64,000 bases of DNA, from NCBI GenBank assembly GCA_041486085.1, contig JBGPKU010000005.1, positions 16,402-80,401 on the forward strand, in the 5' to 3' direction. The notes under the pieces are model-generated. The model worked only from the letters and a program-made list of their open reading frames with translations. It was not told where the DNA came from and did not search any database. The stretch comes from Candidatus Limnocylindria bacterium (lineage in GTDB: Bacteria > Chloroflexota > Limnocylindria > P2-11E). Shown piece by piece: positions 15,338 to 29,759 of this stretch. Each line of letters opens with the position of its first letter. The stretch's first letter is position 1. The position numbers and the translations under genes were made by a program.

Positions 15338-16582
15338 CTAGGACCGGGCCGTGGTCAGACGATCGGCGAGCTTGGTGACGAGCCTGCGAGCGACCTCCGT
15401 CTTGAGGAGCAGGGGCAACGCCTCGACGCCATCCGCGCTCACGAACGTGACGCGATCGGTGTCGCTGCCAAAGACGGAGCCTGCCTCGCTGATGTCGTTC
15501 GCGACGACCAGGTCGAGCTTCTTGTCGCGAAGCATGCGCTCGGCCTCCTTCGTCGCGTCGCCGGTCTCAGCTTTGAAGCCGACGACGATCGTGCCGGGCT
15601 TGCGCGCCGCGACCACGGCCTTCAGCACGTCGGGGTTTTCGGTCATCTTGATCGTGAGCTCGGAGCCGGCGTCGCGCTTCTTGAGCTTTCGCACCGAGGT
15701 CTCCGTCGGCCGGTAGTCCGCGACGGCCGCGGCCATCACGACCGCGTCGGCCTCGGGAAGCAGCGCGAGCACGGCGTCCTTCATGTCCTCGGCGCTCTCC
15801 ACGGCGATCGTGCGCACGCCTGGCGACGCGGTCAGCGCGGTCGGCCCGGTGATGAGAGTGACATCGGCGCCCGCGCGCCGAGCCGCATCGGCGATGGCAT
15901 AACCCATCTTGCCGCTCGAGCGATTCGAGACGAAGCGCACCGGGTCGATCGCCTCGACCGTCGGCCCTGCCGTCACGATGATCCTGCGGCCGGCGAGCGC
16001 CGCCTCGTTGAGCGGCTCGGTGTGCGCCGGCGTTCCCAGCGCATCGATGATCGCAGCCTCGATGCGCTCCAGAGACGCGAGACGCCCGGGACCGACGTCG
16101 CCGGACGCCAGCGGGCCTGACTCGGGGTCGACGACACGCACGCCACGGGCACGAAGCCGCGCGACGTTGTCGCGCGTCGCGGCGTTCTGCCACATGTGCG
16201 TCTCCATCGCCGGTGCGACGATGACCGGCGCCTCGGTGGCCAGCACCGTCGTCGCGATGAGATCGTCCGCCAGACCGCCCGCGAGCTTGGCGAGCACGTG
16301 GGCCGTCGCCGGCGCGACGACCACGATGTCCGCCTGCCGGCCCATCGCGATGTGACCTGCGGCGCGTTCGTCCTGGATCTGGAACATCTCGACCTCGACC
16401 GGGCGGTACGTCAACGCCTGGAACGTGAGCGGCCGCACGAATTCCGTGGCCGAGCGGCTCATCACGACCTGCACCGTCGCACCGGCCTGTGTGAGGCGGC
16501 GTGCCAGCTCGATCGACTTGTACGCGGCGATCGAGCCGGTGACGCCGAGCACGACGAAGCGGCCGCGCAGCGCGTCGTTCAC
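15338..16582 (-). CDS. coaBC: Bifunctional phosphopantothenoylcysteine decarboxylase / phosphopantothenate--cysteine ligase
   Basis: Motifs [52 protein letters not shown] and VGFKAET are present. Confidence 0.97.
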
Positions 16583-17349
16583 ACGTTCAGCTCGTACAGG
16601 AGCCGGAGACCCTCGAGGGTCAGATCCTCATCCACCGTCTCGATGCCTTTGGCGAGCGGTGCGATGGTCGGCGCCAGGCCGCCGGTCGCGATGACCCGCG
16701 GCGCGGCCGGGAGCTCCGCGACGATGCGCGCGAGGAGCCCCTCGACGAGGCCGACGTAGCCGAAGACGATGCCCGAGCGCAGGCAGTCGGCGGTGTTCTT
16801 TCCGATCGCCGTCGCCGGTGGCGTGAGCGCGACGCGGAACAGGCGCGAGGCGCGGCCAAACAGCGACTCCGCCGAGAGCTCGAGTCCCGGCGCGAACGAC
16901 CCACCGAGAAAGTCTCCGTCCTCGCTGACGACATCGAAGTTCGTCGTGGTACCGAAGTCGACGACCACCGCGGGACCGCCGTAGCGGCGGTGGGCCGCGA
17001 GCGTGTTGGCGATGCGGTCCGCGCCGACCTCCGCCGGGTTGTCGACGCGCAGGCGCACCCCCGTCTTGACCCCGGGACCGACGATGAACGCGGGCCGCTC
17101 GAGGTAGCGTTCTGCGAGTCTCGTGAACGCCTGCGTGAGCGGCGGCACGACGCTGCCCACCACCAGCGCGTCGAGCTCGGCCAGGGCGAGGTCCTCCTGC
17201 TCGAGCAGGGCGTCGATCGAGACGGCGAGCTCGTCCTCGGTCCGGTCGTGCACGGTCGCCAGGCGCCAGGTGCGAAGCAGCTTCGCGTTCTCGTAGACGC
17301 CGAGGACGACGTTGGTGTTGCCGACATCGACCACGAGCACGCTTGTCAC
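16579..17349 (-). CDS. coaX: Type III pantothenate kinase
   Basis: Motifs [32 protein letters not shown] and LTLEGL are present. Confidence 0.96.
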
Positions 17350-17350
17350 G

Positions 17351-17872
17351 TCAATCGTTCGCTTCGGTCGCGCCGGTGCGCAGGCCTCCCTGCCCCGAGT
17401 GCGCCTTGAGCGCCTTCGCGACGTTGGCCGGCACGAACTTGTCGACAGGCGCGCCGAAGGCGACGAGCTCCTTGACGCGCGACGCGGACAGAAAGAGGAA
17501 CTCCGGCGCCGTCATCAGGTAGACCATCTCGATGCTTGGCGCGAGCGTCCGGTTCATGTTCCCCATCTCGAACTCGAACTCGAAGTCCGACAGGGCGCGG
17601 ATCCCGCGGATGATGAACGTGGCGCCGCACTCCTTGGCGAAGTCCACCTGCAGCCCCTCGAACGAGCGGGCCTCGACGTTGCTCCACTTCTTGCACGCGT
17701 CGCGCATGAGGGCAACGCGCTCGTCCGCATCGAACACCGTCTTCTTCGTGAGATTGCGGCCGACGCCGACCACGACCAGGTCGAAGAGACGCGATGACCG
17801 CGCCACGATGTCGAGGTGACCGTTCGTCGGCGGGTCGAATGAGCCGGGGTAGATAGCCACGCGCGCGCTCAT
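17351..17872 (-). CDS. coaD: Pantetheine-phosphate adenylyltransferase
   Basis: Motifs AIYPGSFDPPTNGHLDI, IRGIRALSDFEFE and LSASRVKE are present. A GAGGAGG RBS precedes ATG 17872. Confidence 0.97.
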   Translation of the reverse strand: MSARVAIYPGSFDPPTNGHLDIVARSSRLFDLVVVGVGRNLTKKTVFDADERVALMRDACKKWSNVEARSFEGLQVDFAKECGATFIIRGIRALSDFEFEFEMGNMNRTLAPSIEMVYLMTAPEFLFLSASRVKELVAFGAPVDKFVPANVAKALKAHSGQGGLRTGATEAND

Positions 17873-18030
17873 GACGGTCGCGCCTCCTCTTCCATGTGGC
17901 CTCGGTAGTGCACGCCGCTCGGCATCGTAGCGCCTAGAGCCCGCGAACCGGTGCTGGTCGCGTGCCATCGGGCCGCGAGGGCGCGCCGGCCGGAACCAGC
18001 GAAGCACGCCGCGGCCCTATCGGAGCGCCT

Positions 18031-19494
18031 TCAGGGACGATGGAGCTGCGGGTCAGCGAGACGACGCGGATAGGCCGCGACCGCGTCGACCGTGTGCGTG
18101 CCCCTCCGATGCGCTCGATCCGGGCCTTGCGATGACGCGACGTAGCGCGGGATCCGGACCACGGCACACGCGCCGGGTCCGTCGTTCGACTCGAGCTCGA
18201 TCGTGCCGTCGTGTCGAAGGACGATCCAGCGCGCGATCGCGAGCCCCAACCCACTCCCCGACGGATCGAGCGCCCGTGCGGCGTCACCACGGTACGACCG
18301 TTCGAAAAGCTGGGCGCTCGGCACGCTCGGAAGGCCGATTCCTTCGTCGACGACGCGAAGCACCGCGTCGCATCCCTCATCCCTGATCGACAGGCAAACG
18401 CGGCCAGGGGCAGGTGTGTAGCGGAGCGCATTGTCGAGCAGCACCACGATCAGCTGCTTCAGCCGGTCACGTTCGCCGCTGACCGCCACGGCGTCGATCC
18501 AGCGCACCTGGAGGCGTCCGCCGGCAAGAGCGCGCAGCTCATCGAACGTCTCCATCGCGACCTCGTCGAGCTGCACCGCCTGGCCGGCGAACGGTTGTGC
18601 AGCGTCGGCGCGTGCGAGCACGAGCAGCTTGTCGACGAGTCGCGCCAGTCGCTCAGACTCGCGCACGATGTGGGAAGCGGCGTCGCGTTGCGCTTCCCTA
18701 TCGGGCTCCTGTCCCACGAGCAGCTGTGCGTTGCCGTGGATGACCGAGAGCGGCGTCCGCAGCTCGTGCGACACGTCGCGGAGGAAGCGTTGCTGCTGCT
18801 GATACGCGTCATCGAGGCTCGCCAGCATCTCGTCGAACGCCGCGCCTAGATTCACGAGCTCATCCTCGGGGTCGCCGACGACCCGGACCCGTCGAGCGAA
18901 ATCGCGAGATGCCGAGATCCCGCTCGCGGCGGCGGTGAGCTGTGCCACCGGTCGCAGCGCGTGAGAAGCGAGCTCGGAGATCACCGCGGTGCCGACTCCG
19001 ACCGACAACAGTCCGAGGAACAAATAGGCCCAACGCAGCTGCGCGTTCGCCGCATCGATCGCGCTGAGGTCGGCGGCGATGACGACACGCCCGTCACTGC
19101 TCGCCAGCGGCGTGGCGAGCGTCCGGATGCGGCCGAGCTCCGTCCATCGCGTCTGCCAACCATCGCCCACCGACGGCGCGTCGAGCAGAGCGAACAACGC
19201 GTCGGATGTCGCGCCGGCGGCTGCGATCGTGTTCGCACCGACGACGAGCCATGCGGCGTGTGGCTCGTCAATGGCGCGGTGCAGATCAAGGAGCGTCACA
19301 TCCGGCAAAGCGACGCCGTCGGTGAGCTGAGCGTTCACCTCCGCGGTCGCGCGCGTGGCTATGTCATTGAGAGCGGCGTCGACGTCGGAGTCATGCGCTT
19401 CGGCATGGAGCACATACGCCAAGGTGAGCGCGATCGCAAGCACGCTCGCGAGTAGGACGCCGTAGGCGAGCGTGATCCGGCGGCGAAGGCTCAC
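18031..19494 (-). CDS. Membrane sensor histidine kinase (2 TM, HAMP, HisKA, HATPase)
   Basis: It has two TM helices and the motifs VSHELRTPL, LLDNALRY, VVDEGIG and GSGLGLAI. Confidence 0.95.
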   Translation of the reverse strand: MSLRRRITLAYGVLLASVLAIALTLAYVLHAEAHDSDVDAALNDIATRATAEVNAQLTDGVALPDVTLLDLHRAIDEPHAAWLVVGANTIAAAGATSDALFALLDAPSVGDGWQTRWTELGRIRTLATPLASSDGRVVIAADLSAIDAANAQLRWAYLFLGLLSVGVGTAVISELASHALRPVAQLTAAASGISASRDFARRVRVVGDPEDELVNLGAAFDEMLASLDDAYQQQQRFLRDVSHELRTPLSVIHGNAQLLVGQEPDREAQRDAASHIVRESERLARLVDKLLVLARADAAQPFAGQAVQLDEVAMETFDELRALAGGRLQVRWIDAVAVSGERDRLKQLIVVLLDNALRYTPAPGRVCLSIRDEGCDAVLRVVDEGIGLPSVPSAQLFERSYRGDAARALDPSGSGLGLAIARWIVLRHDGTIELESNDGPGACAVVRIPRYVASSQGPDRAHRRGTHTVDAVAAYPRRLADPQLHRP

Positions 19495-20177
19495 GACGCC
19501 GCTCGCAACGAGTAGCCGAGACCCCGGACGGTAAGGATGAGCCGCGGCTCTCCGGCCGCCTCGAGCTTATCGCGCAGGTATCCCACATAGACCTCAAGGA
19601 CGTTCCCGTTGCCCTCGAAGTCGTAACCCCACACGCGTTCCGTGAGCTCGCGCTTCGGAACGACCTTCCCCGCCTCTCGCATGAGCTGCAGGAGCAATCG
19701 GTACTCGGTGTTCGTCAGAGCGATCTCGCGGAGGCCGCGGCGCGCGCGGCGCGATCCGGTATCGAGCTCGAGGTCGCCCGCGGCGAGCAGCTCGGGCGAC
19801 GGCGCGCGACGCCGTAGCACCGAGCGAAGATGCGCGGCGAGCACCGCGAGACTGAACGGTTTCACCAGATAGTCGTCGGCGCCGGCGTCGAGGCCACTTA
19901 CCTGATCGTCGGTGCCGTCCTTGGCCGTGAGCAGGACGATCCCCACGTCCGGGCGCTCCGCGCGAACGAGCCGACAGAGCGACAGGCCGTCCGTGCCGGG
20001 CATCACGACGTCGAGCACGAGCGCATCGGGTTTCCAGCCGCGGACAGTCTCGAGGGCGCGAGCCGCGTCCCCGGCGGCTGCGACGTCGTAGCCTTCGCGC
20101 CGCAAGCCGCGCGCGAGGATGCTCGTGACGCCGTCGTCGTCGTCGACGACGAGCACGCGCGACCGTCGATCGTCCAT
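19491..20177 (-). CDS. OmpR/MprA-like response regulator
   Basis: Motifs VLVVDDD, LDVVMP, GADDYLVKPF, VWGYDFEG..NVLEVYVGYLRDKLE and TVRGLGY are present. Confidence 0.95.
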   Translation of the reverse strand: MDDRRSRVLVVDDDDGVTSILARGLRREGYDVAAAGDAARALETVRGWKPDALVLDVVMPGTDGLSLCRLVRAERPDVGIVLLTAKDGTDDQVSGLDAGADDYLVKPFSLAVLAAHLRSVLRRRAPSPELLAAGDLELDTGSRRARRGLREIALTNTEYRLLLQLMREAGKVVPKRELTERVWGYDFEGNGNVLEVYVGYLRDKLEAAGEPRLILTVRGLGYSLRAAS

Positions 20178-20193
20178 CGCCTGCGGATGGTGT

Positions 20194-20210
20194 TCTCAGG
20201 TTCCTCTCAG
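20194..20210 (+). promoter_or_regulatory. Direct-repeat operator TCTCAG-N5-TCTCAG (MprA-box type), site 1
   Basis: The sequence TCTCAG GTTCC TCTCAG lies in the divergent intergenic region. Confidence 0.75.
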
Positions 20211-20255
20211 CGGAACTGCCGGTCGGACCAGACCTTGAGGGTCGTTCGGTCCTTC

Positions 20256-20272
20256 TCTCAGGTGGCTCTCAG
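20256..20272 (+). promoter_or_regulatory. Direct-repeat operator TCTCAG-N5-TCTCAG (MprA-box type), site 2
   Basis: The sequence TCTCAG GTGGC TCTCAG ends 17 nt upstream of the Fe-S gene start. Confidence 0.75.
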
Positions 20273-20289
20273 GGAGAGGCTGCGCTGCG

Positions 20290-21054
20290 ATGGCTGGACC
20301 ACTGACACGGCGCCAGATCCTCGCCGCGCTGGGCGGCGCCGGTGCCACGGCGCTTGCCGCCGGGCTCTCTCCGATCTCCTTCCCTGAGGCGGATGCCGCC
20401 GACCCGAGCAAGCCGGAGCGCCAGTGGGCCATGGTCATCGACCTCCGCAAGTGCGACGGCTGCCGAAAATGCACCCAGGCCTGCCAGGAGACGCACGAGC
20501 TTCCCACGAATTTCGAGTGGATCAAGGTCTTCGAGGTCACGGACAAGCAGGGCCAGTCGTACTTCATGCCCCGGCCCTGCTTCCAATGCGAGAACGCTCC
20601 GTGCCTGCGCGTGTGCCCCGTTGCCGCGACGTTCCGCGACAGCGAAGGCGTCGTCCTTGTCGATCAGAACAGGTGCATCGGCTGCCGGATGTGCATGGCG
20701 GCCTGCCCCTACGGGGCTCGGTACTTCAACTACAAGGATCCGCCCGGCACGCCGAACCCGTTCGCGCACCCGACGCCCGAATTCCCCGTGCCTCAACAGA
20801 AGGGAACGGTCGGCAAGTGCATGTTCTGCGTGCATCGCACCGAGAACGGCCAGCTGCCAGCCTGCGTCGAAGCCTGCGGGATGCAGGCCCTCTGGATCGG
20901 CGATCTCACCACGGACGTCGCGACGAATGGCACGGAGACGGTGCGCCTCTCGCAGCTGATAAAGGAAAACGACGCCTTCCGCTACAAGGAAGAGCTCGGG
21001 ACCGGCCCGCGCGTGTACTACATCGCGGGTCACGGCCAGCACCTGGACCTCTGA
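20290..21054 (+). CDS. Tat-exported NrfC/DmsB-type 4x[4Fe-4S] electron-transfer subunit
   Basis: It has the Tat motif LTRRQIL and the Cys groups CDGCRKCTQAC, CFQCENAPCLRVC, CIGCRMCMAAC and KCMFC...PACVEAC. The C-terminus reads ELGTGPRVYY. Confidence 0.93.
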   Translation: MAGPLTRRQILAALGGAGATALAAGLSPISFPEADAADPSKPERQWAMVIDLRKCDGCRKCTQACQETHELPTNFEWIKVFEVTDKQGQSYFMPRPCFQCENAPCLRVCPVAATFRDSEGVVLVDQNRCIGCRMCMAACPYGARYFNYKDPPGTPNPFAHPTPEFPVPQQKGTVGKCMFCVHRTENGQLPACVEACGMQALWIGDLTTDVATNGTETVRLSQLIKENDAFRYKEELGTGPRVYYIAGHGQHLDL

Positions 21055-21056
21055 GC

Positions 21057-22391
21057 ATGGACCGCAGGACGCACGACCGCTATCTCGAGCGCGCGATGTG
21101 GTCGATCGGGCGTGGCGATCGCAACTTCTGGATCGCCGTCGTCGGGCTCGGCACCCTCGTGGCCGCCGGTATCTACGCCTGGATCTATCAGATCCAGCGC
21201 GGCCTCTGGGTCACCGGGCTGAACCAGAAGGTCTCGTGGGGCTTCTACATCATCAACTGCGTTTTCTTCATCGGCATCAGCTACGGAGGCGCGATGACGA
21301 GCGCCATCCTGCGGCTGACCAATGCGAAGTGGCGGGCGCCGCTCACGCGCCTCGCCGAGACGACGGCGGTCGCGGCGCTCCTTGTCGGAGCGGTCTACCC
21401 GATCGTCGACATGGGCCGACCCGATCGCTTCCTCTTCATCCTGCTGTACCCGCAGGCCGGCTCTCCCGTGGTGTGGGACGTCGTCGCGATCAGCACATAC
21501 ATGCTCGCGAGCCTCGTGTTCCTGTACCTGCCGCTCATTCCTGACCTCGCGATCACCCGTGACTCATTGGGCGCGGGGTGGCTCCGCCGCATCTACAACG
21601 TGCTCTCACTGGGCTGGAAGGGCACGCCGGGCCAGGAGCGCTCCCTCGCGCGTGGCATCGGGATCATGGCCGTCCTCATCATCCCACTCGCGGTCTCGGT
21701 GCACTCGGTGCTGGCGTGGCTCTTCGCGGTCACCGCGCGCGGCGGATGGCACAGCACCATCTTCGCACCGCTCTTCGTGCTCGCCGCCATGCTGTCAGGC
21801 GTCGCTGCGGTCATCCTCGTCGTCGCCGCCTTCCGCAAGGTGTACGGCCTTCACGAATTCATCACCGCGAAGCACTTCCGCTACCTGAGCTATCTCCTGG
21901 TGGCGCTTGGCATCGGCTACCTCTACTTCATGGTCAGCGAATACCTGACCGAGGGATATCTCCTTGAGGAGAGCACCACGCCGGTGCTTGAAGCGATCTT
22001 CATCGGCAGCTACGCCCCGGCCTTCTGGTCGTTCACGATCATCGGACTCATCTTCCCGCTCTGCCTCGTCGCGTTGCCGGGTCGCTTCGCGATCGCGCGC
22101 GCCTGCACCGCCTCGGGCCTGGTCATCGCGGGGATGTGGCTCAAGCGGTTCCTCATCGTCGTCCCCGGCATGGCTGAGCCCGTGATGCCGTGGGACTGGG
22201 GCCGGTACTCACCGACGTGGGTCGAGGTCACCATCACGATCGGGTCGGCGGCCGCCATCCCGCTCATCCTGATCATCTTCTTCCGCTTCTTCCCGGTCAT
22301 GTCGGTCCACGAGATGGAAGAGGTCGAGGGCGCCGTCGAGACACCGCGCGCGGCGCTGCGGCCGGCACTCGCCGAGGGGGGCAATGGATGA
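21057..22391 (+). CDS. NrfD/PsrC (ActC/QrcD-like) quinol-interacting membrane subunit
   Basis: About 10 TM segments, with motifs WGFYIINCVFFIGISYGG, DMGRPDR, SPVVWDVVAISTY, VSVHSVLAW, GWHSTIFAP and GMWLKRFLIVVP. The start was moved to ATG 21057. Confidence 0.92.
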   Translation: MDRRTHDRYLERAMWSIGRGDRNFWIAVVGLGTLVAAGIYAWIYQIQRGLWVTGLNQKVSWGFYIINCVFFIGISYGGAMTSAILRLTNAKWRAPLTRLAETTAVAALLVGAVYPIVDMGRPDRFLFILLYPQAGSPVVWDVVAISTYMLASLVFLYLPLIPDLAITRDSLGAGWLRRIYNVLSLGWKGTPGQERSLARGIGIMAVLIIPLAVSVHSVLAWLFAVTARGGWHSTIFAPLFVLAAMLSGVAAVILVVAAFRKVYGLHEFITAKHFRYLSYLLVALGIGYLYFMVSEYLTEGYLLEESTTPVLEAIFIGSYAPAFWSFTIIGLIFPLCLVALPGRFAIARACTASGLVIAGMWLKRFLIVVPGMAEPVMPWDWGRYSPTWVEVTITIGSAAAIPLILIIFFRFFPVMSVHEMEEVEGAVETPRAALRPALAEGGNG

Positions 22392-23056
22392 AGAAGCTCG
22401 TTTGCGCGATCGTCGCGCTCGGCATCATCGGTCTGTCAGTCGTCGTGGCCGGTCCCTTCGCCGCGGGAACACGGACTCCACGAGTCGCGACGCAACCCGC
22501 GGACGCCGGCCACGATCACGGCACCGTCGTCGGGCTCGCGCCCGCACCGATCACCGATCCCGCCGCGACCGCCGCTCGCCTCGTCGTCACGGCGCAGCCG
22601 TTCGAAAAGACGGAGCGGGGTTACGCCCTCCAGGTCAACATCGTCGCGCCGGACGGCAAGCCGGTCGCCGACGCCCAAGTGAAGTTCTACGAGCTGGTCG
22701 ACCTCTTCGGCACGCGCGAGATGCTCCTCGCGGCCGCGACCACCGACGGCCGCGGCGCCGCCTCGTATGGCTACCTCCCCGCCCATCCTGGCTCGCATCC
22801 CCTCATCGTGCGCTTCACCGGTCGCGATCGGACCCTCACCGCCGGAGAGGGCCGTCTGACACTTGAGGCGACGGTCTCCGCCGAACGGCCAGCTCCCGAG
22901 CGCTCCGGATTCGCCGCGTTCAGCGACAAGGTCCCGTACGCCGCAGGCGCCCTCGTCCTCACGGTCTGGGGCCTCATCGCATTTGCGCTCATTGCCACGG
23001 CGCGCGGCGTCATTGGCGCCGCGCCCAGAACTTCGACGAAAGGAGAAACAGCGTGA
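22388..23056 (+). CDS. Hypothetical membrane-anchored exported protein (His patch, Ig-like domain, C-terminal TM)
   Basis: ATG 22388 overlaps the upstream TGA. The protein has an N-terminal hydrophobic segment, AGHDHG, a beta-rich core (TTDGRGAASYGY) and a hydrophobic C-terminal helix. Confidence 0.75.
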   Translation: MKKLVCAIVALGIIGLSVVVAGPFAAGTRTPRVATQPADAGHDHGTVVGLAPAPITDPAATAARLVVTAQPFEKTERGYALQVNIVAPDGKPVADAQVKFYELVDLFGTREMLLAAATTDGRGAASYGYLPAHPGSHPLIVRFTGRDRTLTAGEGRLTLEATVSAERPAPERSGFAAFSDKVPYAAGALVLTVWGLIAFALIATARGVIGAAPRTSTKGETA

Positions 23057-23652
23057 CCTTACGCACACGCATCCTCGCAAGCACCGTCGTCGCCCTCATG
23101 ATCGCCGCCTCCTGCGGCGGAACCACGGGCGAAGGCGCCGCGCCCACGGCCGCGGCGAAAGCCTCGCCGGCAGCACCGGCGGCGACGCAGGCCGCTCCGG
23201 TCCTCGCGAGAAGCCTCGTCATCCTCGGCGACACCATCCGCAGCCAGGCAGGCCTCACCGATGTTGAGAAGAACATCAACGCACCCGGGATCCACTGCAC
23301 CGAGCAGAGCCGCTTCCCACAGGGTGGCCGGATCGTCTGGCGAATGAAGGCGCTTGACCCGATCTCGGGCAAGTTCCTCGATGACAAGGACATCGCGTCG
23401 TTCACGATCACCTTCCCCGACGGGAAGAGCGACAAGCTCGCGTACGGCGGGCACGGCGGCACCAAGGAAGCTCCACAGGACTTCCTCTGGGCCGTTGGGT
23501 ACACCATCCCGCTCGACTACCCGACAGGCGCCTTCAACGTGAAGATCGAGGCCAAGAGCATCGCGGGTGCGGTCGGCACCTTCGAGTCGTTCAAGGTCGC
23601 GGCCGCGCAGCTCACCATCACGAAGGCCGGCCAGGACTACCCGCGCCAGTAA
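23053..23652 (+). CDS. Hypothetical lipoprotein
   Basis: It has an AAAGGAG RBS, the lipobox IAASC and an Ala/Pro linker, then a globular domain (HCTEQSRF, YGGHG, FLWAVGYTIPLDYPTG). Confidence 0.8.
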   Translation: MTLRTRILASTVVALMIAASCGGTTGEGAAPTAAAKASPAAPAATQAAPVLARSLVILGDTIRSQAGLTDVEKNINAPGIHCTEQSRFPQGGRIVWRMKALDPISGKFLDDKDIASFTITFPDGKSDKLAYGGHGGTKEAPQDFLWAVGYTIPLDYPTGAFNVKIEAKSIAGAVGTFESFKVAAAQLTITKAGQDYPRQ

Positions 23653-23673
23653 GGGATCGAAAGGAAACGTGAA

Positions 23674-25194
23674 ATGACAGGCCACGAGCGTCTAGCGCGT
23701 CTGGCGATCTCGCTTGTCGCTACGACGCTCGTGGCGGCAGCGTGCACCGCACAGACCGCACCGAGCACACCCTCGCAGCCCGCGGCACCAAAGGCATCCG
23801 CGCCCGCGGCCGTTGCCTCGGCCGCAGCCGCGGTTCCGAGCGCTGCGGTCCCGGCGATGGAGATCGTCGGCAAGTTCGCGCTCGAGCCCGCGCACGGCGC
23901 GTGGGACGCGAAGGTCACCGCGACCGCGACCGGACTGAAGCCGGCGACGAAGTACGACCTCATGTGGACGACCGGCAAGGTCGCCTGGAAGCTCTCGGAC
24001 GATAAGAGCAAGTATCTGGGCCGCGATGCGAAGACGCTCCAGAACATGATCGGTTCCTACACGACTAACGGGAACGGCGCCTTCGTGGCGACCTTCGCGG
24101 TGCCGCAGGGCTTCGGCTACGCGCACGACGTGACGGTCGTCGACGCGGAGAAGACGATCCGCAACAAGGCGCTCTTCGATGTCGACATGATCACGACCAT
24201 GACGCCGACGAGCGGCCCGGTCGGTACGCCGATCACGGTCGAAGTGAAGGGCATCGGCTACCAGTCCTACCAGAACAGCTTCCAGCTCGACTATGACAAC
24301 GCCTACACCGGCTGGGTCTCGTCGATCACGACCGACGGCTATGCGAAGTTCGTGATCCCCGCCACCGGTGCCGTGGGAACGCACATCATCACGCTCGGCC
24401 ACTCCGAGTTCGGGGCGCCCTACATGAACCCGAACCAGCAGCCTGTGGTCGCTTCGCGGCCGTTCCCGCATCTTCCATTCACGGTCACGGACGGCCCGGC
24501 GGTCGCGCCAACGGCGGCCGAGCTGCAGGGCTTCGCGCAGATCCCTGCGAAGCCCGTCTCACAGGGCATCTGGTCCGCGCCGTACGGTGCCGCGGTCGGT
24601 ACGCTGGCGACCCTCAACGGCAAGGCCCTCACCGCGAACAGCGAACTCGAGATCCTCTGGACGACGATGGTCGGCAATCGCTCCGTCACCGGCTTCGAGG
24701 AGCGCACCAAGTCGCTCGGTAAGGTGAGGACCGACACGACGGGCACATTCAGCTGGTCCTTCCCGATCCCCGATGATCTCGGCGGCACGCACACCGTGAT
24801 CGCGAAGCTCGGCGACACGGAGATCGCGAAGACGACGGTCTACATCCTGGCGAACGCCTTCCCGCTCAGCGTCGATCGCGGACCTTCGGGCACGAAGACG
24901 ACGCTGCATCTGAAGGGCGTGGGCTGGACCGAGACCGAGCAGATCTATCACGTCGTCTATGACAACGCCTTCGCGGGCTACGCCTGCGCCTTCCAGAGCG
25001 CCGGCGACTTGACGATCTTCTTGACCGCATCCGGAGCGCCAGGCTGGCACTACATCGACATGTACCCCGGCATCTATCAGGGAAGCGAGACGCGGCCCGC
25101 GAACTACAAGATGCCGCAACTCACCGCCCTCACCGATCATCCCGGCGAGCCGCTACCCATCTTCCGTTGGGCCTTCTTGATCACCGCGCCGTAA
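23674..25194 (+). CDS. Hypothetical lipoprotein with internally duplicated beta-rich (Ig/IPT-like) domains
   Basis: It has an AAGGAA RBS, the lipobox VAAAC and an Ala/Pro linker, followed by two homologous halves. Codon usage looks strongly coding. Confidence 0.85.
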   Translation: MTGHERLARLAISLVATTLVAAACTAQTAPSTPSQPAAPKASAPAAVASAAAAVPSAAVPAMEIVGKFALEPAHGAWDAKVTATATGLKPATKYDLMWTTGKVAWKLSDDKSKYLGRDAKTLQNMIGSYTTNGNGAFVATFAVPQGFGYAHDVTVVDAEKTIRNKALFDVDMITTMTPTSGPVGTPITVEVKGIGYQSYQNSFQLDYDNAYTGWVSSITTDGYAKFVIPATGAVGTHIITLGHSEFGAPYMNPNQQPVVASRPFPHLPFTVTDGPAVAPTAAELQGFAQIPAKPVSQGIWSAPYGAAVGTLATLNGKALTANSELEILWTTMVGNRSVTGFEERTKSLGKVRTDTTGTFSWSFPIPDDLGGTHTVIAKLGDTEIAKTTVYILANAFPLSVDRGPSGTKTTLHLKGVGWTETEQIYHVVYDNAFAGYACAFQSAGDLTIFLTASGAPGWHYIDMYPGIYQGSETRPANYKMPQLTALTDHPGEPLPIFRWAFLITAP

Positions 25195-25375
25195 GCCGAC
25201 AACCTCCGTTGCCGTTCACGGCGCCGGGCTCTCGAGCTCAGCGCCGCGGCGAGTCCGACTCGAAGCAACGGACCGCAGGCGCGTCGGCCGACGAGGGCTA
25301 CGCGCCGGTCTCGACGATGAATCGCCACGGACCGGTGTCGGTCCGGGCTACCTCGGGACCACGCTGGAGCTCAAG

Positions 25376-25740
25376 CCGGCCGCTGCGCGACGCCGCCGTG
25401 GAGTGCTACGAGCGGATGGCCGCGACGCTGCGGGATGGCGCGACGGTCGCTGCGGTGCTCGGCGCGGCCCAGGTCGTGCACGAGCGGGTTCACGGTGTAC
25501 GACGACCTGCTCCACGGCACCGACCCGCTCCCGCCGGTGATCCAGACCCGGCCCACGGCGCGGGCCCCGCAGAACGAGGCGTTCGTGTTCCGCGAGAACA
25601 CGGTGGTCGTGCTCCAGCCCAACGTGGTCCGCGACTCCACTGGGACAATGGGGCTGCAGGTGGGTGAGACCGTCCGCGTGACCCGGGACGGCGTCGAGCG
25701 CCTGCACGAATATCCGATGACCTTCGTGCGTTGCGGATAG
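25376..25740 (+). pseudogene. C-terminal remnant of an M24 (Xaa-Pro peptidase/creatinase-fold) protein, frameshifted
   Basis: LRDAAVECYERMAATLRDGATV..VHE shifts frame near 25485 into GFTVYDDLLHG...FRENTVVVLQPNV...GLQVGETVRVTRDGVERLH. No N-terminal domain is present. Confidence 0.7.
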
Positions 25741-25753
25741 CGGAGGGGACGCG

Positions 25754-28769: not shown

Positions 28770-29755
28770 ATGAGTTTCGCGCTGCTGCAGTTCAACCCCT
28801 CGTCGGTCGTGCTGATGGACAACGAGGGGCGCATCCGTTCGCTCAACCGCAACGCCGAGCGCCTTCTCTCGACCAGCGAATCCGATGCGATCGGCAAGGT
28901 CTACACCGACGTGTTCGGGCCGTCACTGTCGTCGCGCGTGTTCGCGCTGATGCTGAAGGGGACGGCGGGCGACGTGCGAACGATCGAAGCGACGCTGCCC
29001 GACGGGCGTCGCGCGACGCTTCGTGCCACCGCCGGTCCGCTGCGCGATGCGCGCGGGGCGGTGGACGGCATCGTCTTCGTCGCCGACGAGGACACGTCTT
29101 CGCCGAAGCTGGAGCGCCTCGCGGAGCAGCAGGTGCGTTATCGCGACGCGCTGCGGCGCTACCTCGGCGACAACGTCGCGGAGATGGTCGACGCGCGCCC
29201 ATCGTTCGTCGACGTTGGCGGCGTAACCCAGACGGTGAGCGTGCTCCACGCCGACGTGCGTGGCTACACGACCATGGCCGAGCAGCTGGCACCCGACAAG
29301 GTCGTGGCGCTGCTCCTGCGCTATCACGGCGCGGCCGCGAAGGCGATCCGCGCCTCCGGCGGCACGATCGACCGCTTCGCCGGCGACGCGATCCTGGCGC
29401 TCTGGAACGCGCCGACGCCGCAGAAGGACCACGTGCGGCGGGCGCTCACAGGCGCCCTGGCGATGCGCGATGCCGCTGCCCTGGCCGGCGCGGACCTCGG
29501 CTACGGCATCGGGGTCCACACCGGCGAGGCCATGGTGGGCAATCTGGGATCGGATCAATACCAAAACTTCACGGCAATTGGCGACACGGTGAACGTCGCG
29601 GCGCGTTTACAAGGGCAGGCAAAGGTCGGTGAAGTGATCTGTTCCGCTGCGGTCCTCTCGGCTGCCGGCGACGGCATCCGCGCCGTATCGCTGGGCGCCC
29701 TCGAGCTCAGGGGCCGCCGGGCGCCGGTCGAGGCCTACCGGGTGGAGGAGCTGAG

Positions 29756-29759
<4 letters not shown>
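28770..29759 (+). CDS. PAS domain + class III adenylate/guanylate cyclase
   Basis: An N-terminal PAS-like region (VVLMDNEGRIRSLNRNAERLL) precedes the motifs LHADVRGYT, IDRFAGDAILALW, GIGVHTG and FTAIGDTVNVAARLQ. Confidence 0.92.

What the first reader, a model, noticed from the sequence alone, without database searches (positions are those of the whole stretch)
20290..25194. Orphan NrfC/NrfD quinol module wired to three unknown exported proteins instead of a catalytic subunit (best candidate for a novel system)
Seen: five tightly coupled genes (gaps of -4 to 21 nt) encode a Tat-exported 4x[4Fe-4S] protein, a ~10-TM NrfD/ActC-like protein, a His-patch membrane-anchored protein and two lipoproteins with no recognisable family. 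Established: NrfC/NrfD-type pairs normally pass electrons between quinones and a molybdopterin enzyme (Psr/Ttr/Dms/Qrc), a multiheme cytochrome (Nrf, ACIII) or a hydrogenase. I found no molybdopterin subunit, CxxCH heme motif or hydrogenase in the operon. Inference: the two lipoproteins form an uncharacterised extracytoplasmic redox enzyme or metal-handling module fed by the quinone pool and controlled by the adjacent two-component system.
Basis: partly seen in the sequence, partly recalled or inferred. Interest (0 to 1): 0.82.

Follow-up and report, generated by a model that had tools for sequence, protein, structure and literature searches.

The report
Quinol module with unknown lipoprotein partners
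A soil/sediment Chloroflexota bacterium carries a conserved five-gene operon in which a quinone-linked iron-sulfur membrane module is joined to two unstudied lipoproteins instead of the usual cytochrome or molybdenum enzyme, so these lipoproteins may be a new kind of electron-transfer partner.

Summary
Window 20290-25194 (+) holds five tightly coupled genes:
- a Tat-exported 4x[4Fe-4S] NrfC/DsrO-like protein;
- an ActC/DsrP-like NrfD with its quinone-site and gating residues intact;
- a bitopic Ig-like protein (Ig3);
- two lipoproteins, Lp199 and Lp506, with no Pfam, NCBIfam or PDB sequence match.

AlphaFold models show only Ig-like beta-sandwiches, four of them in Lp506.

Of 36 related loci with enough upstream DNA, 25 keep NrfC-NrfD directly upstream of Lp199-Lp506, down to 33% identity. 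In two Acidimicrobiia genomes the same pair overlaps qcrCAB instead.

Ig3 is homologous to a Big-domain subunit of sister NrfCD cassettes. There the following genes encode c-type cytochromes or a cupredoxin lipoprotein. Here Lp199-Lp506 hold that place.

Each mature lipoprotein keeps one universally conserved Cys plus conserved His. None of the homologues has CxxCH.

Best reading (0.45): a mini-ACIII-like quinol module whose exit partner is a new heme-free, possibly copper-binding lipoprotein pair. No cofactor, binding or activity is shown. Distant standalone pairs without any redox neighbour keep a non-redox accessory role open.

The parts
18031..19494 (-). Sensor histidine kinase (HAMP-HisKA-HATPase), divergent from the operon
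   Evidence: Pfam HATPase_c, HisKA and HAMP. The best NCBIfam model is 'heavy metal sensor histidine kinase' over the full length, at 184.6 bits, below its cut-off of 292.55.
19491..20177 (-). OmpR-type response regulator, overlapping the kinase gene
   Evidence: Pfam Response_reg + Trans_reg_C. It is conserved next to the cassette in close relatives such as L012, L016, L021 and L029.
20178..20289 (.). Divergent intergenic region, presumed to hold the promoters of both units
   Evidence: Position only. The sigma-70 consensus scan found no site.
20290..21054 (+). NrfC/DsrO-like, Tat-exported 4x[4Fe-4S] ferredoxin (254 aa)
   Evidence: Fer4_11 at 1.1e-20. NCBIfam DsrO at 212.4 bits, above its cut-off of 200. 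16 invariant Cys. Best solved relatives are ArrB, PsrB and the Fe-S part of ActB.
21057..22391 (+). NrfD-family integral membrane subunit, ActC/DsrP-like (444 aa)
   Evidence: Pfam NrfD at 1e-38. Best solved relatives are ACIII ActC: 6f0k_C at 5.5e-61, also 6lod_C and 6btm_C. D118, S136 and R364 align to ActC H139, S164 and R395. They are D/H, S and R in the rows compared: 23, 23 and 24 of 24, with one row masked at the first two positions.
22388..23056 (+). Ig3: bitopic protein (222 aa) with an N-terminal signal or anchor, one Ig-like domain and a C-terminal TM helix
   Evidence: Only sub-threshold Big_3_5 and CarboxypepD_reg hits. hhalign gives 97.8% to the Big_1 part of a cytochrome c-Big fusion (L071) and 93.7% to the Big_3_5 subunit of L076 in sister NrfCD cassettes. 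No conserved Cys or His.
23053..23652 (+). Lp199: lipoprotein with a single Ig-like beta-sandwich domain
   Evidence: No Pfam, NCBIfam or PDB sequence match. The AF2 model has pLDDT 78.4 and is all-beta. Foldseek returns only generic Ig/MG/filamin folds. Invariant C82, H134, W146 and Y156.
23674..25194 (+). Lp506: lipoprotein made of four Ig-like domains (an internal duplication of two)
   Evidence: The AF2 model has pLDDT 80.7. Foldseek returns generic macroglobulin/Ig arrays. Self-hits between the two halves appear. C438, H459, H373, H151, D430, D488, Y436, Y250, N252 and Q255 are kept even in homologues of 28-33% identity.

Best explanation
The operon encodes a small quinol-linked respiratory module of the NrfCD type.

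Proposed mechanism:
1. The ActC/DsrP-like membrane subunit binds (mena)quinol.
2. The Tat-exported four-cluster ferredoxin carries the electrons along the outer face of the membrane.
3. The bitopic Ig-like protein Ig3 is a conserved third subunit of this NrfCD clade.
4. The lipoprotein pair Lp199-Lp506 sits at the end of the chain, in the place that c-type cytochromes or a cupredoxin take in sister cassettes.
5. The pair acts as the electron acceptor, either a carrier or a terminal enzyme. It probably uses a metal centre loaded outside the cell (copper is the first guess), bound by the one conserved Cys plus conserved His of each protein.

What is shown and what is inferred:
- Shown: gene order, families, conserved residues, folds, synteny and the contents of the sister cassettes.
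- Inferred: that the five proteins form one complex, the direction of electron flow, and any cofactor in the lipoproteins.
For: 1. Tight coupling. The gaps are 2, -4, -4 and 21 nt.

2. Synteny.
- 25 of 36 loci with at least 4.2 kb upstream of Lp506 have NrfC and NrfD directly upstream. Lp506 identity in these loci ranges from 89% down to 33%.
- They include records titled Limnocylindria, Dehalococcoidia and Chloroflexia.
- L066 has NrfD upstream of a tandem duplication of the pair.
- NrfD and Lp506 identities co-vary (Spearman 0.91, n = 27). The loci are related, so this is descriptive only.

3. The NrfD is functional-looking. D118, S136 and R364 align to ActC H139, S164 and R395. Calisto and Pereira 2021 (PMC8076601, passages read) name these as the quinone-site and gating residues. 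They are D/H, S and R in the rows compared (23, 23 and 24 of 24, one row masked at the first two positions).

4. Ig3 is homologous to the Big-domain subunit of sister cassettes (hhalign 97.8% and 93.7%).

5. Seven loci with the nearest non-cassette NrfD were examined (39-48% identity).
- L071: NrfC-NrfD-(cytochrome c + Big fusion, 1 CxxCH).
- L072: Big, then cytochrome c, then a 7-heme protein.
- L073: proteins with 7 and 9 CxxCH.
- L076: Big, then cytochrome c, then a cupredoxin lipoprotein.
- L074: a Tat molybdopterin-sized protein upstream, named from its size and signal only, not scanned.
- L077: tblastn hits to cytochromes c and b only.
- L075: cut by the contig end.

6. In two Acidimicrobiia loci (L044, L048) Lp199-Lp506 overlap the start of qcrC-qcrA-qcrB, another quinol-oxidising module.

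7. Conserved Cys and His.
- 41 of 41 full-length Lp506 homologues have exactly one Cys beyond the lipobox, as do 39 of 42 Lp199 homologues.
- C438 and C82 are kept in every row, including homologues of 28-33% identity. So are H459, H373 and H151. H134 is kept in 27 of 28 rows.

8. Both lipoproteins have Sec-type signals without RR. A cofactor would therefore be loaded outside the cell, which fits copper rather than Fe-S. This last step is inference.
Against: - No known cofactor motif, family or fold with a redox function was found in Lp199, Lp506 or Ig3.
- hhalign against a real cupredoxin lipoprotein matched only the lipobox.
- 10 of the 36 loci lack NrfCD. Three have only a two-component system nearby (L037, L039, L041). 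Five distant ones (L062, L063, L064, L069, L070) have no recognised redox gene beside them. In four of those five, two ORFs with N-terminal signal-like leaders (about 180-210 aa, one Lp199-like) precede the Lp506-like gene, and two sit next to an MMPL transporter.
- The qcr-linked form rests on only two related genomes. Just 4 of 201 sampled Acidimicrobiia have any match.
- The genome already has cytochrome b genes, one heme-copper oxidase and c-type cytochromes, so the cassette is an accessory. It is patchy: 10 of 25 genomes of the genus and 10 of 301 sampled Chloroflexota.
- A single conserved Cys in each protein could equally be an intermolecular disulfide with no redox role.
Confidence: 0.45

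Rival explanations
1. Lp199-Lp506 are not redox-active. They are accessory or scaffold lipoproteins on the outer face of quinol-oxidising complexes in single-membrane bacteria: stabilising, substrate- or envelope-binding, or protective. The real electron acceptor of NrfC would be a cytochrome c or cupredoxin encoded elsewhere.
For: - All three unknown proteins are plain Ig-like sandwiches with no cofactor motif.
- The pair occurs with two different quinol modules and also alone.
- The genome has several c-type cytochromes that could serve as acceptors.
- From memory, not tested here: mycobacterial bc-aa3 supercomplexes carry accessory lipoproteins (LpqE, SodC).
Against: - In sister cassettes the slot after the Ig subunit holds true redox carriers, so a carrier is expected there.
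- One universally conserved Cys plus several conserved His in each protein is unusual for a pure scaffold.
- Across 25 loci no cytochrome c gene was seen in the cassette.
Confidence: 0.3
2. The cassette is a metal-handling system rather than a respiratory branch. Quinol-derived electrons, or electrons passed to quinone, would be used to reduce or oxidise an extracytoplasmic metal ion such as Cu(II)/Cu(I) held by the lipoproteins. The purpose would be detoxification or cofactor delivery, under control of the adjacent sensor.
For: - The best model for the window's kinase is the heavy-metal sensor kinase family over its full length, though below cut-off.
- His-rich linkers occur in Ig3 of many Limnocylindria.
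- The lipoproteins keep conserved Cys and His.
- From memory: CcoG/FixG is a polyferredoxin cupric reductase with an Ig-like domain.
Against: - The kinase hit is 184.6 bits against a cut-off of 292.55.
- 17 loci instead carry a HisKA_3-type kinase. The four scanned (L037, L039, L041, L019) have PAS or GAF-like sensor domains, and five loci have tandem universal-stress proteins. That pattern looks redox- or hypoxia-like rather than metal-specific.
- The His patch is not conserved.
- The FixH/YtkA lead failed: Pfam finds nothing, and hhalign gives 0.24% against a real YtkA protein of the same genome.
Confidence: 0.17
3. The NrfCD pair serves a molybdopterin enzyme or cytochrome encoded elsewhere in the genome, and the three downstream genes are unrelated passengers.
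For: Three PF00384 matches lie elsewhere in the genome (C6, C38 and C39). Two are at contig ends, so their neighbours are unknown.
Against: - The five-gene order is kept with overlapping stop and start codons in 25 loci down to 33% identity.
- The genome's second NrfD (C48) sits with its own Fe-S protein and FdhE. It is the likelier partner of the TGA-containing molybdenum enzyme at the end of C38.
- The C6 enzyme lies between acyl-CoA-ligase-like genes.
Confidence: 0.05

Closest known systems
Alternative complex III (ActABCDEF), core ActB(Fe-S)/ActC
   Same: NrfD here is most like ActC among solved structures: 6f0k_C at 5.5e-61, also 6lod_C, 6btm_C and 8k9e_C. The quinone-site and gating residues are kept. 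NrfC resembles the Fe-S half of ActB. The likely task is the same: take electrons from quinol to a carrier outside the membrane.
   Different: There is no ActB molybdopterin-like half, no multiheme ActA or monoheme ActE (no CxxCH), and no second NrfD-like ActF or ActD. Instead there is an Ig-like bitopic subunit and two Ig-fold lipoproteins.
DsrMKJOP complex (DsrO/DsrP)
   Same: NrfC scores above the curated DsrO cut-off (212.4 against 200). DsrP is the best NCBIfam model for the NrfD.
   Different: DsrP scores 122.9 against a cut-off of 350. No DsrM, DsrK or triheme DsrJ gene lies in the operon. dsrAB was not searched for in the genome.
Sister NrfC-NrfD-Big cassettes of Chloroflexota found here (L071, L072, L076)
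   Same: They share NrfC, NrfD (43-48% identity by tblastn) and a homologous Ig/Big subunit. L072 also has a PAS-kinase/LuxR-type regulator pair upstream by tblastn, not scanned by Pfam.
   Different: Their downstream genes are c-type cytochromes (1 to 7 CxxCH) or a cupredoxin lipoprotein. The window's cassette has Lp199-Lp506 there. As far as three literature searches show, these sister cassettes are themselves undescribed.
Psr/Nrf/Ttr/Arr-type complex iron-sulfur molybdoenzymes and NrfABCD
   Same: They use the same two-subunit membrane anchor logic: a four-cluster ferredoxin plus NrfD.
   Different: There is no Mo-bisPGD subunit and no pentaheme NrfA/NrfB next to the pair.
Actinobacterial cytochrome bc (QcrCAB) operons
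   Same: In L044 and L048 the same lipoprotein pair is the first part of a qcrC-qcrA-qcrB gene string with overlapping genes.
   Different: The window's organism links the pair to NrfCD, not to Qcr. Its cytochrome b genes are on other contigs.

Membership tests
NrfD family (PF03916) | Match to the family model above the curated cut-off | tested here: met
   134.2 bits against a cut-off of 25.8, E = 1e-38, covering model positions 1-309 of 313.
NrfD family (PF03916) | Conserved quinone-site acid/His and Ser, and the mid-membrane gating Arg. These are the residues listed by Calisto and Pereira 2021 (passages read). | tested here: met
   D118, S136 and R364 align with ActC H139, S164 and R395. 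They are D/H, S and R in 23, 23 and 24 of 24 cassette NrfD sequences, with one row masked at the first two positions.
NrfC-type four-cluster ferredoxin | Four Cys groups for 4x[4Fe-4S] and a Tat signal | tested here: met
   16 Cys in four groups, invariant in 16 sequences. Fer4_11 at 1.1e-20. The TRRQILA motif is present, although the Pfam TAT_signal hit is only sub-threshold.
DsrMKJOP | DsrO and DsrP equivalog scores above cut-off | tested here: inconclusive
   DsrO scores 212.4 against 200 (met). DsrP scores 122.9 against 350 (not met).
DsrMKJOP | DsrM, DsrK and the triheme DsrJ encoded with DsrOP | tested here: not met
   The three other operon genes are Ig-like proteins without CxxCH. Flanking genes are a two-component system and a pirin. 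The rest of the genome was not searched for dsr genes.
Alternative complex III | Heme subunits ActA/ActE, the ActB molybdopterin-like domain and a second NrfD-like ActF | tested here: not met
   There is no CxxCH in the operon. NrfC is only 254 aa. The operon has a single NrfD, and the genome's only other NrfD is on C48 with FdhE.
Complex iron-sulfur molybdoenzymes (Psr/Ttr/Arr/Dms) | Mo-bisPGD catalytic subunit encoded next to the Fe-S and NrfD subunits | tested here: not met
   No PF00384 match lies in the window's contig region. The three matches are on C6, C38 and C39.
Cupredoxin | Match to cupredoxin models or profile similarity to a cupredoxin | tested here: not met
   No Pfam hit. hhalign of A2 and A4 against the L076 cupredoxin lipoprotein aligned only the signal/lipobox.
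FixH/YtkA copper-chaperone-like domain | Match to PF13115 or profile similarity | tested here: not met
   0 of 24 Lp199 homologues hit YtkA at E up to 10. hhalign gives 0.24% against the genome's own YtkA protein. The only lead was an Atlas feature score of 0.81.
Bacterial lipoproteins | Signal peptide ending in a lipobox Cys | tested here: met
   Seen by eye in the sequences...ALMIAAS-C21 in Lp199 and ...LVAAA-C24 in Lp506. This Cys is invariant in A1 and A2. No lipoprotein predictor was run.
c-type cytochromes | CxxCH heme-attachment motif | tested here: not met
   0 motifs in the five proteins and 0 in 179 homologue sequences.

The most novel reading that the evidence does not exclude
Lp199 and Lp506 together form a new class of extracytoplasmic electron-transfer protein built only from Ig-like domains. 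Its redox metal centre (most plausibly copper) would be held between the two subunits by the single conserved Cys and the conserved His of each. It would be a plug-in, heme-free exit module that can dock either on an NrfCD-Ig quinol module or on a cytochrome bc complex. In single-membrane Terrabacteria it would replace the c-type cytochromes or cupredoxins used by sister systems.
Probability: 0.2. Interest if true: 0.85.

Novelty: new variant of a known kind. Interest (0 to 1): 0.62.

Why it matters
NrfCD-type modules are one of the main ways bacteria connect the quinone pool to chemistry outside the membrane. Every characterised one ends in a molybdenum enzyme, a multiheme cytochrome or a hydrogenase.

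Three things follow from this cassette:
- A clade of Chloroflexota NrfCD modules has a conserved Ig-like third subunit and swappable downstream partners.
- One of those partners is a protein pair with no known family, fold-level function or cofactor motif.
- If the pair is redox-active, it would add a new type of electron carrier or terminal enzyme to respiratory chains. It would also explain part of the unassigned respiratory potential of Limnocylindria and related soil and sediment Chloroflexota.

If the pair is only an accessory, it still defines a new subunit family of quinol-oxidising complexes, shared between NrfCD and bc complexes. Either way the family can be tested directly by expressing two soluble lipoprotein domains.

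Tried and rejected
Binding prediction
- NrfC (partner) was folded against Ig3, Lp199 and Lp506 as trimmed alignments. The verdict was 'no answer'.
- The median score was 0.55. Controls with the partner replaced scored 0.00 and 0.00. The control with Lp506 replaced scored 0.40.
- This is not evidence for or against binding.

Expression
- The look-up of sequencing runs listed no RNA holder, so nothing can be said about expression.
- Ten sediment-metagenome DNA runs hold at least half of the sampled words.

Fold searches
- Foldseek against the PDB gave only generic Ig, macroglobulin, filamin and PKD hits for both lipoproteins.
- The pdb_via_wide and pdb_via libraries were not available.
I could not measure whether C438, H459 and H489, or C82 and H134, lie together.

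Sequence-profile searches of the lipoproteins
- PDB sequences: nothing below E = 0.2.
- Pfam on all 24 Lp199 homologues at E up to 10: nothing consistent.
- Ten longer Lp506 relatives (543-634 aa) showed no informative fused domain. They gave only TIG and one sub-threshold Cu_amine_oxidN1 hit.

Leads tested and dropped
- FixH/YtkA, from the Atlas at score 0.81: rejected.
- Cupredoxin homology: rejected.
- L075's weak PSCyt1 hit: rejected because the protein has no CxxCH.

Promoters and terminators
- The scan gave nothing above shuffles.

Spacer after Lp506
- The 560-nt spacer holds only ORF fragments with no Pfam match.

Literature
- Three full-text searches found no description of this cassette or of the lipoproteins.
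- Of PMC8076601 I read only the passages returned by 'find'. Of bioRxiv 10.1101/2021.08.23.457424 I read only the passages.
- All other papers were seen as search listings only. Supplements were not requested.

Earlier findings

Full report
**What is there**

The window is 69% G+C. It lies on contig C5 of a 2.9-Mb, 82%-complete metagenome-assembled genome. Close protein relatives carry the source label Candidatus Limnocylindria or Chloroflexi/Chloroflexota.

Five co-directional genes lie between 20290 and 25194 on the + strand. The spacings are 2, -4, -4 and 21 nt.

Gene 1 (254 aa) has a twin-arginine leader and 16 Cys in four ferredoxin groups. It matches Fer4_11. It scores above the curated cut-off of the DsrO model (212.4 against 200). 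Its best solved relatives are ArrB, PsrB and the Fe-S half of ActB.

Gene 2 (444 aa) is an NrfD-family protein (1e-38). Its best solved relatives are the ActC subunits of alternative complex III (5.5e-61 to 8e-55). In that alignment D118, S136 and R364 fall on ActC H139, S164 and R395. Calisto and Pereira 2021 (PMC8076601, passages read) give these as the quinone-site acid/His, the quinone-site Ser and the mid-membrane gating Arg. They are D/H, S and R in the cassette NrfD sequences compared (23, 23 and 24 of 24 rows; one row is masked at the first two positions).

Gene 3 (Ig3, 222 aa) has an N-terminal hydrophobic leader, one Ig-like domain and a C-terminal membrane helix.

Genes 4 and 5 (Lp199, Lp506) have lipoboxes. 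Neither has a significant match in Pfam or NCBIfam.

No CxxCH occurs in any of the five proteins. None occurs in 179 homologue sequences either.

Upstream and divergent lie an OmpR-type response regulator and a HAMP histidine kinase. Downstream lies a pirin, after a 560-nt spacer.

**The unknown proteins**

AlphaFold2 models built from alignments of natural homologues are confident: pLDDT 80.7 for Lp506 and 78.4 for Lp199. Both are all-beta.
- Lp506 has four Ig-like domains. The two halves are an internal duplication, seen as self-hits between halves.
- Lp199 has one Ig-like domain.
- Foldseek against the PDB returns only generic Ig arrays: macroglobulin MG domains, filamin, PKD and the sulfite-oxidase dimerisation domain.

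Profile searches of PDB sequences found nothing. Pfam scans of all 24 Lp199 homologues at E up to 10 found nothing consistent.

Conservation is striking:
- Lp506 homologues of 40-85% identity keep H237, H373, H459, H489, C438 and a block of Asp, Asn, Tyr and Trp, mainly in the last domain.
- After adding six homologues of only 28-33% identity, C438, H459, H373, H151, D430, D488, Y436, Y250, N252 and Q255 are still present in every row.
- Lp199 keeps C82 and W146 in every row and H134 in 27 of 28 rows.
- 41 of 41 full-length Lp506 homologues have exactly one Cys after the lipobox. So do 39 of 42 Lp199 homologues.
- Ig3 has no conserved Cys or His. Its His-rich patch lies in a variable linker.

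**Is the wiring real?**

A scan of one genome per species for Lp506 relatives gave 39 loci. Sampling the phylum and one Acidimicrobiia class gave 12 more.

Lp199 is found by tblastn next to Lp506 in 39 of 45 loci with at least 0.9 kb upstream. In three of the six misses (L062, L063, L069) a diverged Lp199-like ORF is present. L067, a weak tblastn hit, has one too.

Of 36 loci with at least 4.2 kb upstream, 25 have NrfC and NrfD directly upstream in the same orientation. Lp506 identity in these loci spans 89% to 33%. L066 has NrfD beyond a tandem duplication of the pair.

NrfD and Lp506 identities track each other (Spearman 0.91, n = 27). The loci are related, so this is descriptive. The five genes are inherited as a unit.

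Exceptions among the 36:
- Three loci have only a PAS-kinase/LuxR-type regulator pair upstream: L037, L039 and L041.
- Two Acidimicrobiia loci, L044 and L048, are described below.
- Five distant loci have no recognised redox gene beside them. In four of them (L062, L063, L069, and L067, which has less flank) two ORFs with N-terminal signal-like leaders precede the Lp506-like gene. They are about 180-210 aa, and one is Lp199-like.
- Two of those five have a convergent MMPL gene. In L069 that gene is followed by ctaF-ctaD-ctaC-like genes.

**Two findings that bear on function**

First, in L044 and L048 the order is Lp199, Lp506, diheme QcrC, Rieske QcrA, cytochrome b QcrB, with overlapping genes. 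The same lipoprotein pair is thus attached to a second, unrelated quinol-oxidising machine.

Second, I looked at the nearest NrfD relatives that are not in Lp506-positive cassettes (39-48% identity by tblastn). Ig3 is homologous to a Big-domain protein encoded right after NrfD in these sister cassettes. hhalign gives 97.8% to L071 and 93.7% to L076. What follows is a recognised electron carrier:
- L071: a cytochrome c fused to the Big domain.
- L072: a monoheme and a 7-CxxCH cytochrome.
- L073: cytochromes with 7 and 9 CxxCH.
- L076: a monoheme cytochrome and a cupredoxin lipoprotein.

Of the other three sister loci:
- L074 is a classical arrangement with a large Tat protein upstream. I did not scan that protein.
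- L077 has cytochrome c and b hits by tblastn only.
- L075 is cut by the contig end, and its weak PSCyt1 hit has no CxxCH.

In the phylum sample, four of the five genomes with the closest NrfD (48-52%) are Lp506-positive. So there is a clade of NrfC-NrfD-Ig modules with exchangeable downstream partners. In the window's cassette that slot holds Lp199-Lp506.

**Most likely mechanism**

Quinol is oxidised at the ActC-like subunit, possibly with proton translocation because the gating Arg is kept. Electrons pass through the four clusters of NrfC on the outer face. Ig3 is a structural third subunit anchored beside NrfD. Lp199-Lp506, tethered to the same membrane face by lipid anchors, receive the electrons.

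Both lipoproteins have Sec-type leaders. Any cofactor must therefore be inserted outside the cell. With Cys/His ligands that points to copper rather than Fe-S.

Everything from 'receive the electrons' onward is inference. I put this reading at 0.45.

**Main rival (0.30)**

The pair may be a non-redox accessory of quinol-oxidising complexes, with the acceptor a cytochrome c encoded elsewhere. The genome has at least three c-type cytochrome matches, two cytochrome b matches and one heme-copper oxidase. No cytochrome bd was found in this 82%-complete genome. The standalone pairs and the lack of any cofactor motif favour this rival. The contents of the sister cassettes and the conserved Cys/His argue against it.

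**Metal-handling reading (0.17)**
- For: the window's kinase has the heavy-metal sensor family as its best model, but below cut-off (184.6 against 292.55).
- Against: 17 loci have a HisKA_3-type kinase instead. The four scanned (L037, L039, L041, L019) have PAS or GAF-like sensor domains, and five loci have tandem universal-stress proteins. That pattern looks more like a redox or hypoxia regulon.

**Hidden partner elsewhere (0.05)**

Three molybdopterin matches lie on other contigs. The second NrfD of the genome sits with its own Fe-S protein and FdhE. It is the likelier partner of the TGA-containing enzyme at the end of contig C38.

**Distribution and novelty**

The Lp506 family has 1349 representatives at 50% clustering with E up to 0.001. 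Of these, 175 have E up to 1e-30.

The family is patchy:
- 10 of 25 genomes of the window's genus, counting the window's own;
- 10 of 301 sampled Chloroflexota, in 10 of 172 genera;
- 4 of 201 sampled genomes of the Acidimicrobiia class, two of them distant.

Every source name seen was 'hypothetical protein'. Three full-text literature searches found no description.

I file the system as a new variant of a known kind: an NrfCD-type quinol module with a new Ig-like third subunit and a new, uncharacterised partner pair. The pair itself belongs to no known family.

**Limits**
- Cofactor, contacts, direction of electron flow and expression are all untested.
- The one binding prediction gave no verdict, and no RNA data were found. 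Both are reported under Tried and rejected only.

Noticed in passing
window 25195-25753: A 560-nt spacer lies between Lp506 and the pirin gene. It holds only ORF fragments in two frames, possibly a decayed gene. The longest fragment has no Pfam match.
   Followed up: partly
G000 contig C48:234-2752 (L055), with C38:24776-26476: The genome's only other NrfD sits with an FdhE-like gene and a four-cluster ferredoxin at the start of contig C48. A molybdopterin enzyme with one in-frame TGA (possibly selenocysteine) ends contig C38. Together they look like a split formate-dehydrogenase locus.
   Followed up: partly
G000 contig C10:20243-21539 (L079): Two tandem YtkA domains lie just upstream of a c-type cytochrome match. 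This is a real YtkA protein, unrelated to Lp199.
   Followed up: partly
L066 (G325:C547) and L011/L013/L031: L066 has two tandem Lp199-Lp506 pairs after NrfD. One assembly contributes three separate Lp506 loci at 83%, 86% and 52% identity. Cassettes can therefore be multi-copy.
   Followed up: no
L019, L025, L049 (record titles): Loci with 76-84% identity to the Limnocylindria protein carry record titles of Saccharimonadales and Acidiferrales, and a 38% one carries Gemmatimonadaceae. For the close ones, mis-binned contigs are likelier than transfer.
   Followed up: no
L062 and L069: In the distant form, two ORFs with signal-like leaders plus the Lp506-like gene lie next to a convergent MMPL transporter gene. 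This holds in a Chloroflexota and an Acidimicrobiia genome. In L069 the next genes are cytochrome oxidase subunits IV, I and II.
   Followed up: partly
L018:1604-2530 and four other loci: A tandem universal-stress-protein gene recurs near the cassette in five loci. With the HisKA_3 kinase/LuxR-type regulator pairs, this resembles a hypoxia-type regulon.
   Followed up: partly
L034:4389-5863 and L046: NrfD of L034 matches in two pieces with a gap of about 100 nt, so it may be frameshifted or carry an insertion. In L046, Ig3 contains a masked run (X) and Lp506 matches in two pieces.
   Followed up: no
window 15338-18007 (-) and 28770-29759 (+): Coenzyme A genes lie just beyond the kinase: CoaBC-like, type III pantothenate kinase and a cytidylyltransferase-like gene. 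A PAS-adenylate/guanylate cyclase lies downstream. Both look unrelated to the cassette.
   Followed up: no
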